Sequence record: ON286972
DNA length: 64,000 nucleotides
Reading direction: 5' to 3' (one strand)
Origin: Escherichia phage A4
Shown: piece by piece, positions 2,912-45,441 of the stretch
How positions within the stretch are numbered: position 1 is the first letter of the stretch
Layout of the letters: every line of letters starts with the position of its first letter
The notes under the pieces: model-generated
Told to the model about the DNA's origin: nothing
Databases searched by the model: none
What the model saw: the letters and a program-made list of their open reading frames with translations, nothing else
Position numbers and translations under genes: made by a program

Positions 2912-3348
2912 ACATTAAATTAGTTAAAAAATATATCAGTACTTTTAATAAAATTAAATTTATCAACGATGGTTTGACTGATCCTGAAGAACAAATTAAA
3001 AATACCACATACGTAGGTCAGAATTGCTTTAAGATTATTATTGAAAATAATGTATTATCATTATCAGTTAATAATCTGGTATATGGTGATCAGATGTATA
3101 TCGTGCACAATGTTAATAACAATAACTTAGAAATTATGCTTCGTGATGATAATATTATCAAAATATATCAGGTACAAAATGTAAGTGAATGCACTACTGA
3201 AGAGGGGTATTTCCAGGAATCACTGGTTCAAACATTTAATATTGATTTTAAGGATTTGAAATATCTCATGAACACACTAACAAAAATGCGTTCAGCTATC
3301 TTTAACATCTTTTTTATTGATGAACAGCGACAAATGGATGTAAAATGA
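2908..3348 (+). CDS. FQ-motif paralog family protein
   Basis: ORF track; TEEGYFQESL motif; ATGA start-stop overlap. Confidence 0.55.
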   Translation: MNIKLVKKYISTFNKIKFINDGLTDPEEQIKNTTYVGQNCFKIIIENNVLSLSVNNLVYGDQMYIVHNVNNNNLEIMLRDDNIIKIYQVQNVSECTTEEGYFQESLVQTFNIDFKDLKYLMNTLTKMRSAIFNIFFIDEQRQMDVK

Positions 3349-3767
3349 ACCCAAGAGATTGTTTTGATTTGTTAAAGGGAATGCCTATAGATTCACTAGT
3401 ACCTGATAATAGGTTTGAGCACAATCTTGATTTTCATGGTGAAAATTACAATGTATATATAAGCTACAGTGATGATGAGAGTGAAGAACTAACATTTGTG
3501 TTCATTTATAATGTTTTTGAAGGTGATAAGTTGTTGGATGTTGAAATTGCATCATATACTGTCACAAATCAATACGTTATCGAAGATGAACTTCGCAACA
3601 AATTTGATATAACACTGTACAGTACTGAAGAAGAGTTGTTTCAGTTAAGTACTATCAGTGATGTGTGCACAACTGTCGAAGAGTTAGCAGACGTTAAGAA
3701 AATTATTGACACTGTGTACAACAAGATATACAATACATTCCATATCGAGAAACAATTGAAAGGGTAA
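3345..3767 (+). CDS. FQ-motif paralog family protein
   Basis: ORF track; TEEELFQLST motif. Confidence 0.55.
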   Translation: MNPRDCFDLLKGMPIDSLVPDNRFEHNLDFHGENYNVYISYSDDESEELTFVFIYNVFEGDKLLDVEIASYTVTNQYVIEDELRNKFDITLYSTEEELFQLSTISDVCTTVEELADVKKIIDTVYNKIYNTFHIEKQLKG

Positions 3768-15709: not shown

Positions 15710-16199
<490 letters not shown>

Positions 16200-16596: not shown

Positions 16597-17611
<1,015 letters not shown>

Positions 17612-31936: not shown

Positions 31937-32899
31937 GTGAAGAAACTAGACTTAAACGCAATTTCCGAAGAAGTACTGGATGAATGTTTTGCGAATGAAG
32001 AAGTCAATCCATTGGAAGCAATTGAACCATCAGAAGTTATTGAAGATGATATTCCACATAAAGTTCGTAGTAAAAGTAACATTAGTCTCAAGCGTCCAGT
32101 AGGTGTGACTAATGAATCCATCATCGAAGAGATTCGTGCTGGAATTAATGTAAAAAAGAACACTGACCTATTACTTCGTTATAACTATGGTATGATCGTT
32201 GATGTTGCTTCAAAGTGTACATGTTATATTCCGTTTGAAGATAAAATTGCATATGGTGTAGAAGGTTTTATGCGAGCACTTAAAACCTTTGATCTTAGTA
32301 AGAATGTCAAATTCATTACATATGCAACAACGTCCGTTTATATGACTATGTATAATGAAAGTTCAGATGCAAATTACATGGTGTACTTACCACGTTATAT
32401 GAGCGTTCATAACATCCAAGTACGTCGATTTAATGAATCATATCAACGTGAACACGGTAAGCGACCTACACCAGAATTAATCTCTGAGAGTACTGGTATC
32501 GAGCTTCAGCACGTTAAGAACTGTTTGTTATACCAGAATGCATATACGACTCTTGATGCACAACTGGGTTCAGATTCAGACGGAACCCTTGGGGATATTC
32601 TGAGTTCATCTGCTCGTGATTATAACCTTAATGTTGATAGCATTTGTAATCCATTACGTTATGCAATCACAGAAATCATTGACGAATTGAGTACTAAAGA
32701 ACGAGAAATTATCATGCGTGTTCATGGTCTTGGGGATTACAAAGCAGAAACCCTTCGTGAAATTTCTGATAATGGATATGTTGATGATAAAGGAAACATT
32801 GTTAAGTCCCGTTCATCTGTGCACCGAAAATATAGTGAAGCTATTCAAAAGCTTAAAAAAATAGTACTTGAAAAAGGGTACGAATACGAAGATTTCTAA
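31937..32899 (+). CDS. phage-encoded sigma70-family RNA polymerase sigma factor
   Basis: GTG start after AGGAG; region-2-like LLLRYNYGMIVDVA...FMRALKTFD...KFITYATTSVYM and region-4-like LSTKEREIIMRVHGL...TLREIS...SRSSVHRKYSEAIQKLKK. Confidence 0.75.
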   Translation: MKKLDLNAISEEVLDECFANEEVNPLEAIEPSEVIEDDIPHKVRSKSNISLKRPVGVTNESIIEEIRAGINVKKNTDLLLRYNYGMIVDVASKCTCYIPFEDKIAYGVEGFMRALKTFDLSKNVKFITYATTSVYMTMYNESSDANYMVYLPRYMSVHNIQVRRFNESYQREHGKRPTPELISESTGIELQHVKNCLLYQNAYTTLDAQLGSDSDGTLGDILSSSARDYNLNVDSICNPLRYAITEIIDELSTKEREIIMRVHGLGDYKAETLREISDNGYVDDKGNIVKSRSSVHRKYSEAIQKLKKIVLEKGYEYEDF

Positions 32900-32906
32900 A
32901 GAAAAA

Positions 32907-32934
32907 GGGTTGACTTAGGTCAGCCCTTTTTTTA
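32907..32934 (+). terminator. intrinsic terminator (GGGTTGAC-TTAG-GTCAGCCC hairpin)
   Basis: Same hairpin family as the downstream terminator/promoter cassettes, followed by TTTTTTT, no good -10. Confidence 0.6.
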
Positions 32935-40070: not shown

Positions 40071-40445
40071 ATGTTCAATAGTATCATTGGGTTCTCATTA
40101 GTACTTCCACAAATCATTTTTGGTATTTGTTTTGTAACTTTTATGATGGGGTCAATCTATGGTATATGGTATTACATTTTAAAACAATCAGATGGAATCA
40201 TTTTAAAAATAACAATGCATTTTGATGTGGATTCACCAGCATGGAATTCATCTATTATTACCAATACATTGTATTTTATGATGATCATTTTGGAACAATT
40301 GGGATTTGTATCTAATAGTAATGTTTCTATGACCGCAGGTATGGCAAGTATTTGTTGTTTGTGGTATATTGTTTATAAGATTGATGTGTTGTATAATATG
40401 TATCGTGAAATGGTATTGAACAGAGATATGCAGAGGAAAAAATGA
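40071..40445 (+). CDS. integral membrane protein (124 aa)
   Basis: ORF track. Confidence 0.5.
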   Translation: MFNSIIGFSLVLPQIIFGICFVTFMMGSIYGIWYYILKQSDGIILKITMHFDVDSPAWNSSIITNTLYFMMIILEQLGFVSNSNVSMTAGMASICCLWYIVYKIDVLYNMYREMVLNRDMQRKK

Positions 40446-40795
40446 TGAAAGTTATATTATTTTTTATGTGTATTATTATGTGTGGTGTCTCTTATGCTGC
40501 ACCCTTAGCCGGATTGCTTTGTAAAGAGAATTCTGAACAACACATATTCCAAGGGGATTCAGATGACCTTGATATCATTTACATCGATGGTACTGAATAT
40601 ACATACGTTAAAGACCATACTGTTGGTGATATCAGTTTCACTGAATATGCAAAAACAGGTGACACTGATTATAGAGCCTACCTTCAAGTGAATATGATAG
40701 AGGGTGAAGACGGAACACAAGAAGTCAAACTCGTACTTAAACGTATTGGAGATAAGGAGGCTGATTTTGGAGGTGAGTGTACATATGATGATTGA
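40442..40795 (+). CDS. secreted hypothetical protein, paralog of 39691..40056
   Basis: ORF track; signal peptide; shared DG.EY...G pattern. Confidence 0.5.
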   Translation: MMKVILFFMCIIMCGVSYAAPLAGLLCKENSEQHIFQGDSDDLDIIYIDGTEYTYVKDHTVGDISFTEYAKTGDTDYRAYLQVNMIEGEDGTQEVKLVLKRIGDKEADFGGECTYDD

Positions 40796-40803
40796 TTAAA
40801 AAA

Positions 40804-40836
40804 GGTTGACTAACGTCAGCCTTTTTTGTTATACTG
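40804..40836 (+). promoter_or_regulatory. terminator/promoter cassette (hairpin containing -35, T-tract, -10)
   Basis: GGTTGAC-TAAC-GTCAGCC hairpin, TTTTTT, TATACT; TTGACT -35 lies inside the stem. Confidence 0.55.
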
Positions 40837-40844
40837 ATCCCAAT

Positions 40845-40970
40845 ATGCTTGCATTTCTTCAAGTTGATGTATATGAAGAAAGTAATGGCGAACAGTATGT
40901 TAAACTTGTGATGATGCGTAAGGCAGCAAAACAGGCAACATTCGGTGGCTTGTGTAAATATGAGGACTAA
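40845..40970 (+). pseudogene. truncated copy of the C-terminus of the 40442..40795 gene family (41 aa)
   Basis: LQVDVYEESNGEQYVKLVMMRKAAKQATFGGLCKYED versus LQVNMIEGEDGTQEVKLVLKRIGDKEADFGGECTYDD. Confidence 0.4.
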
Positions 40971-40974
40971 ACAT

Positions 40975-41166
40975 ATGTTGATTTATCAATGTGATAACAT
41001 TCGTGTTATACAGCATCCCTACTTACAAATCTTTGATGTGCAGCAGTATATGGAAGGTGATGACCCAAGAACCTATGGTCGTAAGTATGATTACTTCACT
41101 GTAAAGCAGTGTCGTAACATCAAAGAAGTACGACAATTAGTTCAAGAACTTCAAAATAAAGGTTGA
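40975..41166 (+). CDS. hypothetical protein (63 aa)
   Basis: Track ORF 40945..41166 trimmed to ATG 40975 after GAGGA. Confidence 0.45.
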   Translation: MLIYQCDNIRVIQHPYLQIFDVQQYMEGDDPRTYGRKYDYFTVKQCRNIKEVRQLVQELQNKG

Positions 41167-41193
41167 CTTCGGTCAGCCTTTTTTGTTATAATC
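41161..41193 (+). promoter_or_regulatory. terminator/promoter cassette
   Basis: GGTTGAC-TTCG-GTCAGCC hairpin, TTTTTT, TATAAT; the TGA stop of the upstream gene is inside the hairpin. Confidence 0.6.
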
Positions 41194-42296: not shown

Positions 42297-42521
42297 ATGA
42301 AATACATGCTGGTGGCATTAATGTTTGTGAGCACTATAGTACAGGCCAGAATCAAGTACTTTGTGAAGTGTACAAACGTTAGCGGTGGCTACACAGAGAC
42401 ATATCAGGGTAAGTCGGTTAAGATGGCAATACACAATGATAGAGGAACAGTGATTTTCCTTGTGAATGATATAATCATTTTGTACAAACCAGATGTACCA
42501 TGTGAAGTAAAAAGATATTAA
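42297..42521 (+). CDS. small secreted protein (signal peptide)
   Basis: ORF track; MKYMLVALMFVSTIVQA. Confidence 0.45.
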   Translation: MKYMLVALMFVSTIVQARIKYFVKCTNVSGGYTETYQGKSVKMAIHNDRGTVIFLVNDIIILYKPDVPCEVKRY

Positions 42522-42527
42522 ACTACG

Positions 42528-42559
42528 GGGTTGACATAAGTCAGCCCTTTTGTATAATG
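42528..42559 (+). promoter_or_regulatory. terminator/promoter cassette
   Basis: GGGTTGAC-ATAA-GTCAGCCC, TTTT, TATAAT; -10 ends only 8 nt before ATG 42567. Confidence 0.55.
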
Positions 42560-42566
42560 GTGACTT

Positions 42567-43145
42567 ATGAACCGTAAAGGTAAGTTTAAAGTATCAAAGA
42601 AGAATAAAAGTGGAAGGTTCAATGATATATGCTTAGGTTTTATCAAAGCACACAATAAACTTTCTGCCCTGAGTAGAAAGATAGTATCTAACAAGATTGA
42701 TATTAGATATATAAGTACTAACAATAGTACAGGGAAAGATGCACATCCAACTGAAAATATTATTTCAGTATCCTTCGTATACGATGGTCTGGACATTACG
42801 ATAGATGATTACAGACGATACGGTACTGGGTTTATACGTATCTATTGCAGAGATGCATCTGATAAGCCGGAACGTATTCGTATTATCGGTACATTGAGTG
42901 CTGGTATATTTGAGTGGGAGATTGTTCAACTTAAAACTATCGATGAGTACACCACAAGTTCTAATATTATTGAGTTGAATTGCAATGTGAAAGACCTCCC
43001 AAACTTGAGCGAAGAAGAATATTTTCAAGAAAGCTTGCTAACGCCAAATTTGGATGATATAATTAAACAATATAAGACGATGGTGTACTTCTTCAAATGT
43101 ATCAAACCTAAGACTTGTTTGATGAATATTGTCCGTGATCTATAA
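42567..43145 (+). CDS. FQ-motif paralog family protein
   Basis: ORF track; SEEEYFQESL. Confidence 0.55.
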   Translation: MNRKGKFKVSKKNKSGRFNDICLGFIKAHNKLSALSRKIVSNKIDIRYISTNNSTGKDAHPTENIISVSFVYDGLDITIDDYRRYGTGFIRIYCRDASDKPERIRIIGTLSAGIFEWEIVQLKTIDEYTTSSNIIELNCNVKDLPNLSEEEYFQESLLTPNLDDIIKQYKTMVYFFKCIKPKTCLMNIVRDL

Positions 43146-43588: not shown

Positions 43589-43812
43589 TGAAAAGGTATA
43601 AAATTGAATACCTACTTAAAGTAAGAGAGAAAAGTATTAGTAGTGAGAAATACACCAGTGAGATATTCGTCAGAGATGAGTATTACATTGGTGAAAATGA
43701 AGTTGAAGTACTGTTACAATGCATAGAAAATGAATTTCAAGATATGACACGTTATATGTCATTTGAGATATCGTGTGCAAAAGTTACATTCTTGAACAAT
43801 ACTTCATATTAA
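43585..43812 (+). CDS. hypothetical protein (75 aa)
   Basis: ORF track; ATGA overlap. Confidence 0.45.
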   Translation: MMKRYKIEYLLKVREKSISSEKYTSEIFVRDEYYIGENEVEVLLQCIENEFQDMTRYMSFEISCAKVTFLNNTSY

Positions 43813-43816
43813 AAAA

Positions 43817-43856
43817 GGGTTGACTTTTGTTGACCCTTTTTGCTATTCTATAAATA
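43817..43856 (+). promoter_or_regulatory. terminator hairpin with degenerate promoter region (TATAAATA box)
   Basis: GGGTTGAC-TTTT-GTTGACCC hairpin, T-tract, then CTATTCTATAAATATAG. Confidence 0.45.
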
Positions 43857-43902: not shown

Positions 43903-45441
43903 ATGCCAGGTAAATTCACTGACAAAAACGGCGGCAATATGGCTGGACACTCTGATAAATGGAGTGATGAGAATCGTCGCAAAAATAGTTTCCAAGCGGG
44001 GCAAGGTTCCCGTGGCTCTCGCAACCAAGGAACGGGAGAAGCTGGGAAAGCAAACACAGTTGCATCACAGGGTCTTGATACTTCAAACATGTCCCAGCAT
44101 GAAAAATTGAAGTACTTCAATAGTCTTGGTCTTTTAAATCCGCAGCAGAAGCAACAACTTGCTGCACTGGATAAAGCACAAGAACAACCTAAAGCAGCAC
44201 CAGAAGCACCTGCACAGCCTAAAGCGGCTAATCCGGTAAAAGAACTAAGTGATAAACTTGGGAAGATCTTTGCTAACAAACCACAACTAATTCAAGGTAT
44301 CGTAAAAGCACTTCAAGCGGTTCCTAAAGAACAACTCAAGGATAAAGCACAAGCTGTTCTTGATAGTATGAAAGGGAATACCAGTACTGAACCAACTGAA
44401 GTATTCAGTACTATCATGCGTGCACTTGAAGGTAAGCCACAGGCTGATGATGATATTGAGTTTGATGAACCTGCACAAGAAGTAGCAAATCTTGACTCAA
44501 TCGTTTCTACATTTGGAAAAATTGGTGCAGAAGATAAGACTAATGCACAACAAGTTAAGAATGTACAAGCTAAGTTACAAAATCGTCTTGAAGGTAAAGA
44601 TGAAAAGATTAAACTTGCAGCAGATGCGTTGAAGAAAGCATTAGAATCATATAAACCTGGTGAGAAATCTCGCTTCATTACTGCAATGAATGCAGTATTC
44701 GGTGCAATGAAGAAGTATGAAGCTGAACACGGTGAGAAAGTAACTCCTGATGGATATCTCCTTCGCAAAGATGAAGAAGGTGCTGTTGACCAGAAGGACG
44801 CTGAACCAGACTATGGTAATTTACCAGATACAGTTGATATGGATGGTTACATTCATCGTCCTGATATGCAAGAATTTGGTTCAGACAAAGAAGGTTTTGA
44901 ACATGCTATGGCTGTGTACAAAGCATTAGTCGATAATCCACAATATGCAAATAGTTTTGTAGATGAGTTTGATAGTGCATGGAACAACTACCAAGACAAA
45001 GGATATGATTTCCCAGCAGAAGCAGCATTCTTTGAACTAGGTAAACTTCTTGCTAAAAATGGTATTAATGTTGGTTCTAATGGTGAAGCAAACACTTCAG
45101 AAATGGACGCTGAATTGGCTAAAGATCGTGAAATGACTGATAAGTCAATTCATGAACTACAAAAGCTAATGATGTGGATTGCTGAAATTGGCAAGAAAGC
45201 TGGTGCAGATCCTAAGAGCATTAACAGCAATATTAGTTGGATTAAACATAAGGTTGATAACAATGCCCGTAAATTACAAAAGGCATGGACCGACCTAGTG
45301 AATGGTGCAGACGATGTTGATATCGATTCACCAGAAGCATACGAGTACGCATTGAACACACTTGATAACTCTTTCAAGGATTACGAAAATGGTAACGTAA
45401 CTGATTGGGAAAAGGATATCATGCATAAGTACGGTAAATGA
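43903..45441 (+). CDS. hypothetical Lys/Ala/Glu/Gln-rich protein (512 aa)
   Basis: ORF track; GGAGAG RBS; codon usage richer in GC than neighbours; low-complexity N-terminus. Confidence 0.6.
   Translation: MPGKFTDKNGGNMAGHSDKWSDENRRKNSFQAGQGSRGSRNQGTGEAGKANTVASQGLDTSNMSQHEKLKYFNSLGLLNPQQKQQLAALDKAQEQPKAAPEAPAQPKAANPVKELSDKLGKIFANKPQLIQGIVKALQAVPKEQLKDKAQAVLDSMKGNTSTEPTEVFSTIMRALEGKPQADDDIEFDEPAQEVANLDSIVSTFGKIGAEDKTNAQQVKNVQAKLQNRLEGKDEKIKLAADALKKALESYKPGEKSRFITAMNAVFGAMKKYEAEHGEKVTPDGYLLRKDEEGAVDQKDAEPDYGNLPDTVDMDGYIHRPDMQEFGSDKEGFEHAMAVYKALVDNPQYANSFVDEFDSAWNNYQDKGYDFPAEAAFFELGKLLAKNGINVGSNGEANTSEMDAELAKDREMTDKSIHELQKLMMWIAEIGKKAGADPKSINSNISWIKHKVDNNARKLQKAWTDLVNGADDVDIDSPEAYEYALNTLDNSFKDYENGNVTDWEKDIMHKYGK

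What the first reader, a model, noticed from the sequence alone, without database searches (positions are those of the whole stretch)
42528..42569. Promoter -10 box only 8 nt upstream of a start codon: likely leaderless or near-leaderless mRNA
In cassette 42528..42559 the TATAAT ends at 42558 and the ATG of the FQ-family gene is at 42567, with no Shine-Dalgarno sequence, unlike almost every other gene here, which has AGGAG.
Basis: seen in the sequence. Interest (0 to 1): 0.3.

Follow-up and report, generated by a model that had tools for sequence, protein, structure and literature searches.

The report
Terminator-promoter cassette abutting a start codon
A small repeated terminator-plus-promoter cassette in the early region of a jumbo coliphage lies so close to the next gene that RNAs started there would have almost no leader, but the gene still has a ribosome-binding site for longer RNAs, so this looks like a by-product of cassette shuffling and is only a modest curiosity.

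Summary
The geometry is real. A perfect sigma-70 promoter (TTGACA 42531-36, 16-nt spacer, TATAAT 42553-58) ends 8 nt before ATG 42567. That ATG is the true start: the peptide MNRKG.FKVSKKNKS is conserved in all orthologs. Among 23 intergenic strong promoters in the window this is the only gap below 23 nt.

"No Shine-Dalgarno" is wrong. GGTGA (42559-63) pairs with the 16S tail at -7.2 kcal/mol, stronger than the window median, and only 0.6% of random 8-mers do as well. Every ortholog keeps an SD.

The promoter belongs to a repeated composite cassette: its -35 sits in the 5' arm of a GC hairpin that is followed by a T-run. There are 8 copies, all on the + strand. This is the PeSL type of terminator/promoter element described in T4-like phages, here in a relative of Asteriusvirus (121Q).

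The cassette is absent at this junction in 121Q-type genomes, present in Turkey5/JNE01 (9-nt gap) and degenerate in fEgEco12.

Most likely the gene has two kinds of mRNA: SD-led read-through transcripts, and cassette-initiated transcripts with a 0-3-nt leader. No transcript or translation data exist, so this is inferred. Low to moderate interest; a new member of a known kind.

The parts
42527..42548 (+). Hairpin GGGGTTGAC-ATAA-GTCAGCCC(T), the terminator or attenuator half of the cassette. Its 5' arm contains the -35 element.
   Evidence: Found by the terminator scan. RNA fold gives a 9-bp stem, about -14.5 kcal/mol, z = -3.1. The core stem is -12.3 kcal/mol.
42548..42551 (+). T-run (TTTT) after the hairpin. 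It is also part of the promoter spacer.
   Evidence: Read from the sequence. It is the shortest T-run and gives the lowest tail score among the 8 cassettes, and there is no upstream A-tract.
42531..42536 (+). -35 hexamer TTGACA
   Evidence: 12/12 consensus match with a 16-nt spacer.
42553..42558 (+). -10 hexamer TATAAT
42559..42563 (+). GGTGA, a Shine-Dalgarno-like element 3 nt before the ATG. It lies in the promoter discriminator, so only transcripts started further upstream would contain it.
   Evidence: Anti-SD duplex energy -7.2 kcal/mol. Only 0.6% of random 8-mers match it. Gene 48705 has the same geometry.
42564..42567 (+). Predicted transcription start window, positions 6-9 downstream of the -10: C, T, T and the A of the ATG.
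   Evidence: Inferred from the start-site rules in PMC5730371. Not measured.
42567..43145 (+). Gene for a 192-aa protein of unknown function (ortholog of 121Q gp197, phrog_33518). ATG 42567 is its start codon.
42297..42521 (+). Upstream gene (74 aa, ortholog of 121Q gp196). It is the last gene of the transcription unit that would read into the hairpin.
   Evidence: 46% identity to gp196; phrog_31284.
41158..41192 (+). Nearest upstream canonical cassette (hairpin plus TTGACT-18-TATAAT). It is the likely source of read-through transcripts that carry the SD.
   Evidence: No + strand terminator-like site lies between it and 42527.
43812..43841 (+). Next hairpin plus T-run downstream, the likely 3' end of the three-gene unit 42567 / 43157 / 43585.
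   Evidence: -16.1 kcal/mol.

Best explanation
**What it is.** The 45-bp spacer between the gp196-like and gp197-like early genes is a single copy of a repeated composite terminator/promoter cassette of the PeSL type. It consists of a GC-rich hairpin whose 5' arm carries the -35 element, a T-run, and then the -10.

**Why the ATG is so close.** At this copy the cassette's 3' boundary falls immediately after the -10. The gene's own SD (GGTGA) and its ATG therefore lie in the discriminator and start-site region of the promoter.

**Consequence (inferred).** Two kinds of mRNA should serve the same AUG:
- Transcripts from the upstream promoter at 41163 that read through the rather weak hairpin. These carry GGTGA and are translated in the ordinary SD-dependent way.
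- Transcripts initiated at the cassette promoter. These begin at 42564-42567, lack the SD, and are leaderless or have a 1-3-nt leader. They would be translated, if at all, by the 5'-terminal-AUG route, probably less efficiently. They still deliver the two downstream genes (43157, 43585) with normal SDs.

**Origin.** The arrangement is best read as a by-product of cassette-mediated recombination that selection tolerates, not as a dedicated leaderless design.
For: **Shown**
- The promoter is a perfect consensus match and the promoter class is strongly non-random.
- The hairpin overlaps the promoter.
- There are 8 cassette copies, all on the + strand, against 0 expected.
- A documented PeSL of Vibrio phage nt-1 has the same design, GGGTTGACACATGTCAGCCCtttttgTATTAT. 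PeSLs are described as a sigma-70 promoter plus stem-loop plus SD plus ATG, with crossovers mapped between the -10 and the ATG or SD (PMC2839356; PMC4122927).
- The cassette is polymorphic at this exact junction. It is absent in 121Q-type genomes, where the gp196 stop codon overlaps the SD. It is present with a 9-nt gap in Turkey5/JNE01. It is degenerate, with no -10, in fEgEco12-type genomes.
- A second cassette (40806) sits at a deletion junction in front of a truncated paralog, also with a 9-nt gap between -10 and ATG.
- The SD is stronger than the window median, is non-random, and is retained in every ortholog.
- The terminator tail at this copy is the weakest in the family.
- The first 50 nt of the ORF are essentially unstructured (-2.6 kcal/mol).

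**Inferred**
- The start site (PMC5730371).
- That a 5'-terminal AUG can be translated in E. coli (PMC4965119).
Against: - There are no transcript or translation data for this phage or any Asteriusvirus.
- Average start-site usage favours positions 7-8, which are both T here. The A of the ATG is at position 9, with about 7% average usage. A strictly leaderless 5'-AUG may therefore be the minority species, and short U-leaders are expected to translate poorly.
- The share of protein made by each route is unknown.
- The 16-nt spacer and the weak A-tract/UP region may make this copy a weaker promoter than its 12/12 score suggests.
- These phages also encode their own sigma-70-family factor (PMC11895373), whose start-site preferences are unknown.
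Confidence: 0.6

Rival explanations
1. Dedicated leaderless gene. The protein is made essentially only from a leaderless mRNA that starts at A42567, and the resemblance of GGTGA to an SD is incidental.
For: - The 8-nt gap puts the A of the ATG at an allowed start position (9) with the favourable T(-1)A(+1) context, while positions 7 and 8 are disfavoured pyrimidines.
- The start codon is AUG, as leaderless translation in E. coli requires.
- The 5' coding region is A-rich and unstructured.
- Turkey5/JNE01 keep a similar 9-nt gap.
Against: - GGTGA pairs with the anti-SD better than the SDs of two-thirds of the genes here, and only 0.6% of random 8-mers do as well.
- All orthologs retain an SD, including the more than 22 genomes with no promoter at this site and the fEgEco12-type genomes where the -10 is dead.
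- In Turkey5 the A of the ATG is at position 10, outside the usual start-site range.
- Position 9 is used in only about 7% of cases on average.
Confidence: 0.2
2. At this site the cassette acts only as a terminator or attenuator (or mRNA-stabilising hairpin). The promoter half contributes little, and the gene is expressed only from SD-led read-through transcripts.
For: - The hairpin is the part conserved in all three cassette-bearing lineages, and fEgEco12-type genomes keep it while lacking a usable -10.
- The SD is retained.
- One copy in the window (32910) is terminator-only.
- This copy lacks the upstream A-rich tract that other copies have.
Against: - The hexamers here are a perfect 12/12 match. 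That is better than the canonical copies (11/12) and than Turkey5 (10/12), which is not what decay would produce.
- A 16-nt spacer is used by four other perfect promoters in the window.
- The terminator half is the weakest of the family.
Confidence: 0.15
3. Chance juxtaposition with no biological consequence. The hexamers are not a promoter, or the ATG is not the start.
For: The genome is AT-rich, and weak promoter-like matches overall are no more frequent than in shuffles (76 found against 70 expected).
Against: - Perfect-consensus matches number 9 against 0.21 expected and are all co-oriented with the genes.
- The cassette family has 8 copies against 0 expected.
- The start codon is fixed by the conserved N-terminal peptide, by the in-frame TGA at 42561 and by a full-length PHROG match.
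Confidence: 0.03

Closest known systems
PeSL (promoter-early stem-loop) composite terminator/promoter cassettes of T4-like phages: RB49/phi1 (Arbiol et al. 2010, PMC2839356) and nt-1/KVP40, PST/T4 (Comeau et al. 2014, PMC4122927)
   Same: - A near-consensus sigma-70 promoter combined with a GC stem-loop and T-run.
- Many copies, co-oriented with small early genes of unknown function.
- A3-4G3-loop-C3T3-4 stem architecture, as in nt-1.
- Direct blastn similarity to an nt-1 PeSL.
- Presence/absence polymorphism between related genomes, and copies at deletion junctions.
   Different: - The host genome is a relative of Asteriusvirus (121Q/Rak2-like jumbo phages), not a member of Straboviridae. I found no report of PeSLs in that group.
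- Published PeSLs end with a leader that carries the SD. In this copy the leader is reduced to 8 nt, so the SD lies inside the promoter discriminator.
- Promoter and terminator activity and mini-circle formation are untested here.
Leaderless cI mRNA of phage lambda from PRM, and other E. coli leaderless mRNAs such as Tn1721 tetR
   Same: - A sigma-70-type promoter whose -10 lies a few nt upstream of an ATG, so that transcription can start at or next to the A of the AUG.
- An AUG start codon.
- A phage gene expressed in E. coli (background from PMC4965119).
   Different: - Lambda cI is experimentally leaderless. From memory, its A lies at the modal start position. Here the A is at position 9 and nothing has been measured.
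- This gene also keeps an SD usable by longer transcripts.
- This is an early lytic gene of unknown function, not a repressor.
E. coli mRNAs with a 5'-terminal AUG that act both as leaderless and as SD-led messages (PMC4965119)
   Same: Leaderless and SD-dependent initiation coexist at one locus.
   Different: In those mRNAs the two modes act on different ORFs of one transcript. Here two different transcripts would serve the same AUG.
Morons of lambdoid phages (a gene with its own promoter and terminator)
   Same: Autonomous transcription signals flanking small accessory genes. The Turkey5/fEgEco12 lineages carry an extra 78-aa membrane-protein gene together with the cassette at this junction.
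   Different: Moron signals are not a conserved repeated cassette and are not thought to mediate the recombination themselves (discussion in PMC2839356).

Membership tests
PeSL-type composite terminator/promoter cassette | Near-consensus sigma-70 early promoter (-35 and -10 at proper spacing) | tested here: met
   TTGACA-16-TATAAT, a 12/12 match. Family copies are TTGACT-18-TATAAT.
PeSL-type composite terminator/promoter cassette | Stable stem-loop adjacent to or overlapping the promoter, in terminator-like form (GC stem plus T-run) | tested here: met
   Hairpin 42527-42548, about -14.5 kcal/mol, followed by TTTT. The T-run is the shortest in the family.
PeSL-type composite terminator/promoter cassette | Repeated, conserved copies in intergenic positions among small early genes, co-oriented with them | tested here: met
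   8 copies of GTTGAC-N4-GTCAGCCYTTTT, all on the + strand, 0 expected.
PeSL-type composite terminator/promoter cassette | Shine-Dalgarno sequence and start codon at the 3' end of the element | tested here: met
   GGTGA plus ATG are present, but compressed into 8 nt instead of the 23-31 nt seen in the other copies.
PeSL-type composite terminator/promoter cassette | AT-rich (UP-like) tract upstream of the -35 | tested here: inconclusive
   Canonical copies have A3-8 immediately upstream. The target copy has ...AAACTAC before the G-run.
PeSL-type composite terminator/promoter cassette | Association with insertions, deletions or replacements between related genomes | tested here: met
   The cassette is absent at this junction in 121Q-type genomes, present in Turkey5/JNE01 and degenerate in fEgEco12. 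Cassette 40806 replaces the 5' two-thirds of a gene that is intact in UE-S1.
PeSL-type composite terminator/promoter cassette | Demonstrated promoter and terminator activity; mini-circle formation by recombination between cassettes | not testable with these tools
   Needs reporter fusions and inverse PCR, as in PMC2839356.
Leaderless mRNA (E. coli type) | Transcript 5' end coincides with the A of the AUG | not testable with these tools
   Geometry only. A42567 is at position 9 downstream of the -10, within the usable 6-9 range but with about 7% average usage. Positions 7 and 8 are T.
Leaderless mRNA (E. coli type) | AUG (not GUG or UUG) start codon | tested here: met
   ATG 42567. The requirement is stated in PMC4965119.
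Leaderless mRNA (E. coli type) | No SD or 5' UTR available to the gene | tested here: not met
   GGTGA lies 3 nt upstream, -7.2 kcal/mol, p about 0.006. It is absent only from transcripts started at this promoter, and present on any read-through transcript.
Leaderless mRNA (E. coli type) | 70S-dependent initiation at the 5'-terminal AUG | not testable with these tools
   Needs toeprinting or reporter assays.

The most novel reading that the evidence does not exclude
The compressed cassette is a selected dual-mode start. The same AUG would be served by SD-led read-through mRNA and by a truly leaderless mRNA from its own promoter. This would give the phage a gene whose translation continues, or switches, when canonical SD-dependent initiation is altered during host takeover. 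The survival of the arrangement in two diverged lineages (window and Turkey5/JNE01, about 42% protein identity) would then reflect function rather than accident.
Probability: 0.2. Interest if true: 0.45.

Novelty: new member of a known kind. Interest (0 to 1): 0.25.

Why it matters
- It shows that PeSL-type terminator/promoter cassettes, described so far in T4-like phages, also populate the early region of a jumbo coliphage related to 121Q. There they mark indel junctions, so they are useful for annotation and for understanding mosaicism in these genomes.
- The compressed copy gives a natural, easily testable case in which one start codon would be reached both by SD-led and by (near-)leaderless transcripts in E. 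coli.
- It does not open a new question. Leaderless phage mRNAs and PeSLs are both established.

Tried and rejected
- **Alternative start codons.** The UE-S1 ortholog is annotated 22 codons shorter, which suggested a downstream start. I rejected this because the full ORF from the ATG is intact in UE-S1 and the N-terminal 15 residues are invariant.
- **Closer relatives.** I looked for them to test conservation of the 8-nt gap. The IMG/VR peptide scan, an exact 28-mer, and a degenerate 44-mer in IMG/VR and in metagenomes found only 121Q-type sequences. None is closer than Turkey5/JNE01.
- **Function of the protein.** Pfam gave nothing. PDB sequences gave nothing. PHROGs gave only families of unknown function.
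- **Rfam.** Only the six tRNAs were found.
- **Recurrence of short-gap promoters.** In the window and in 50 kb of the syntenic Turkey5 region I found only the ortholog, the 40806 scar and one doubtful 13-nt case whose annotated start differs.
- **Literature.** I found no start-site maps or PeSL reports for 121Q/Rak2-like phages. The Krishnan et al. 2010 paper on 5' extensions of leaderless mRNAs is not held, so that point rests on its title as cited in PMC4965119.
- **Terminator d-score.** The score uses the d'Aubenton-Carafa formula recalled from memory, so it is used only comparatively.

Full report
**Source and context.** The window is the + strand early-gene region of a jumbo myovirus related to Escherichia phages 121Q, PBECO4, UE-S1 and Turkey5 (genus Asteriusvirus). 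Nucleotide identity is only 67-91% in patches, and no closer relative turned up in the phage, IMG/VR or metagenome collections. The region is packed with small genes of unknown function, six tRNA genes and a phage sigma-factor gene (31937-32896). Related phages are reported to have RpoD-like early promoters concentrated in such regions (PMC5259590). No start-site map exists for the group.

**The observation.**
- The coordinates are right: TTGACA 42531-36, a 16-nt spacer, TATAAT 42553-58, GGTGACTT, then ATG 42567.
- Perfect TTGACA-N16-18-TATAAT occurs 9 times in the window against 0.21 expected, always on the + strand. All 37 matches of at least 11/12 are on the + strand. These are real promoters.
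- The ATG is the real start. An in-frame TGA lies at 42561-63. The peptide MNRKG[KR]FKVSKKNKS is invariant in five ortholog lineages, with synonymous differences in the DNA. phrog_33518 aligns from residue 1.
- Among 23 intergenic strong promoters, the gap from -10 to start codon is 8 nt here and at least 23 nt everywhere else.

The 8-nt interval contains GGTGA, which is complementary to UCACC in the 16S 3' tail.
- The duplex energy is -7.2 kcal/mol, stronger than the median (-6.4) of 145 putative genes in the window.
- Only 0.6% of random 8-mers of this base composition reach that value.
- GGTGA followed by 3 nt is the same geometry as in GAGGTGATACATG of gene 48705. From the 16S tail sequence, it is equivalent to GGAGG with a 6-nt spacer.
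- Every ortholog has an SD at the same place: GAGGA in 121Q, Sharanji and UE-S1; GAGG in Turkey5; GGGG in fEgEco12 (-5.9 to -7.6 kcal/mol).

**What the element is.**
- The -35 sits in the 5' arm of a hairpin, GGGGTTGAC-ATAA-GTCAGCCC, followed by TTTT, one G and the -10.
- The same design, GGTTGAC-TTCG-GTCAGCC-T5-6-GY-TATAAT-CATTTCATC, followed by a leader with an SD, recurs at 41163, 45454, 47920, 48649 and 50641. Variants lie at 40806 (TATACT) and 32910 (no -10) and, more distantly, at 43812.
- That makes 8 copies of the core motif against 0 expected, all on the + strand.
- This is the architecture of PeSLs: composite early-promoter/stem-loop cassettes ending in an SD and ATG. They were shown in RB49/phi1 to act as promoters and terminators and to mediate gene shuffling, with crossovers mapped between the -10 and the SD or ATG (PMC2839356).
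- The nt-1/KVP40 type has the stem A3-4G3-loop-C3T3-4 (PMC4122927).
- blastn of the cassette hits one such nt-1 element, GGGTTGACACATGTCAGCCCtttttgTATTAT, which has a 36-nt leader.
- I found no report of PeSLs in 121Q/Rak2-like phages.

**Comparative anatomy of this junction.**

| Lineage | State between the gp196-like and gp197-like genes |
|---|---|
| 121Q-type (more than 20 records, 2 metagenome contigs) | gp196 stop codon overlaps the gp197 SD (aTTGAGGAaattATG). The intergenic spacer is 7 nt and there is no cassette. |
| UE-S1 | Keeps the same SD behind a different upstream segment. |
| Turkey5/JNE01 | An extra 78-aa membrane-protein gene, then a cassette (TTGACC-18-TATAGT) directly followed by GAGGTTCTT-ATG, a 9-nt gap. 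|
| fEgEco12-type | The same extra gene, but only a mismatched hairpin with no usable -10. |
| Window | The gp196 ortholog, no extra gene, and the best promoter of all. |

So the hairpin is what all cassette-bearing lineages share. The cassette's 3' edge is always right at the SD, and the element comes and goes between genomes.

A second case in the window supports the recombination-scar view. Cassette 40806 ends (TATACT) 9 nt before an ATG that opens a 41-aa remnant. That remnant is the C-terminal 40 residues of a gene that is full-length in UE-S1.

**Mechanism.** The points in this section are inferred.
- Sigma-70 holoenzyme starts 6-9 nt downstream of the -10, with average usage of 8/55/29/7% and a strong preference for purines. 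A GGG-like discriminator favours position 7 (PMC5730371).
- Here positions 6-9 are C, T, T and A. Any start therefore gives a leader of 3-0 nt without the SD. The strictly leaderless start at A42567 is favoured by sequence but disfavoured by position.
- E. coli translates 5'-terminal AUGs through 70S ribosomes, with lambda cI as the reference case (PMC4965119). The first 50 nt of this ORF are unstructured, so translation of such transcripts is plausible.
- The terminator half of this copy has the shortest T-run (4), no upstream A-tract and the lowest tail score of the family. No other + strand terminator-like site lies between the promoter at 41163 and 42527. SD-bearing read-through transcripts are therefore expected.
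- The retained, statistically non-random SD argues that this route matters.
- The cassette promoter would in any case drive the downstream genes 43157 and 43585 up to the hairpin at 43812.

**Verdict.** The geometry is real and unusual within this genome. 'Leaderless or near-leaderless' is a fair description of what this promoter would produce. The gene is not SD-less, and the arrangement is most simply a PeSL-type cassette junction. It is a new member of known kinds (PeSL cassettes; phage leaderless or dual-mode starts). Interest is low to moderate.

Noticed in passing
window 40806-40970: A second cassette (hairpin plus TTGACT-18-TATACT, -10 ending at 40835) lies 9 nt before ATG 40845, with no SD. 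That ATG opens a 41-aa ORF equal to the C-terminal 40 residues of a paralog of gene 40442-40795 (53% identity, E 7e-12). UE-S1 has the full-length gene at this place, so the cassette marks a deletion junction.
   Followed up: yes
window 15981-16019 and 16962-16999: Strong promoters also abut tRNA genes. One TATAAT ends at 16008 and tRNA-Ser starts at 16019. Another TATAAT ends at 16989 and tRNA-Gly starts at 16999. The predicted 5' leaders are only about 3 nt, so very short leaders are not unique to the gene in question.
   Followed up: partly
window ORFs starting at 16690, 21135, 21581 and 42567: Four otherwise dissimilar ORFs share an EEEYFQ[EDM]S motif near the C-terminus. The motif is invariant in all gp197 orthologs. 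Its function is unknown. It loosely resembles an ExxYxQ-type protease site, but that was not tested.
   Followed up: partly
window 16553, 16962, 34813, 46403 (also 4347, 35160, 26183): There is a second promoter class with a conserved spacer and discriminator, (A)GTACTG-TATAAT-GTTT(R)TATC, and mostly a 16-nt spacer. The target cassette shares TTGACATAAG...TGTATAAT with the 34813 copy, so it looks like a hybrid of the two classes.
   Followed up: no
window 42467-42475: An extended -10 (TGaTATAAT) followed by CATTT, as in canonical cassettes, lies inside the 3' end of the upstream gene and has no -35. If active, it would produce an 85-nt leader that includes the hairpin and the SD.
   Followed up: no
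window 31937-32930: A phage sigma-70-family factor gene (60% identity to the Turkey5 protein annotated 'RpoS') is followed immediately by a terminator-only cassette copy at 32910, the strongest hairpin of the family (-21 kcal/mol). The consensus promoters could therefore be read by the host sigma, the phage sigma, or both.
   Followed up: partly
L001 (UE-S1) 2921-3493: The UE-S1 ortholog (UES1_175) is annotated from a GTG 21 codons downstream. The full ORF from the conserved ATG, with GAGGA upstream, is intact, so the database start is probably wrong.
   Followed up: yes
window 43812-43841: A hairpin variant, GGGTTGAC-TTTT-GTTGACCC, carries TTGAC in both arms and is followed by a poor -10 (TATTCT). 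It precedes the 512-aa gene at 43903, which is annotated as a virion structural protein in relatives.
   Followed up: no
L002 859-1095 and L005 841-1077: The fEgEco12 and Turkey5 lineages carry an extra 78-aa predicted membrane-protein gene between the gp196 and gp197 orthologs, together with the hairpin or cassette. It is absent from the window and from 121Q, which is a moron-like indel.
   Followed up: partly
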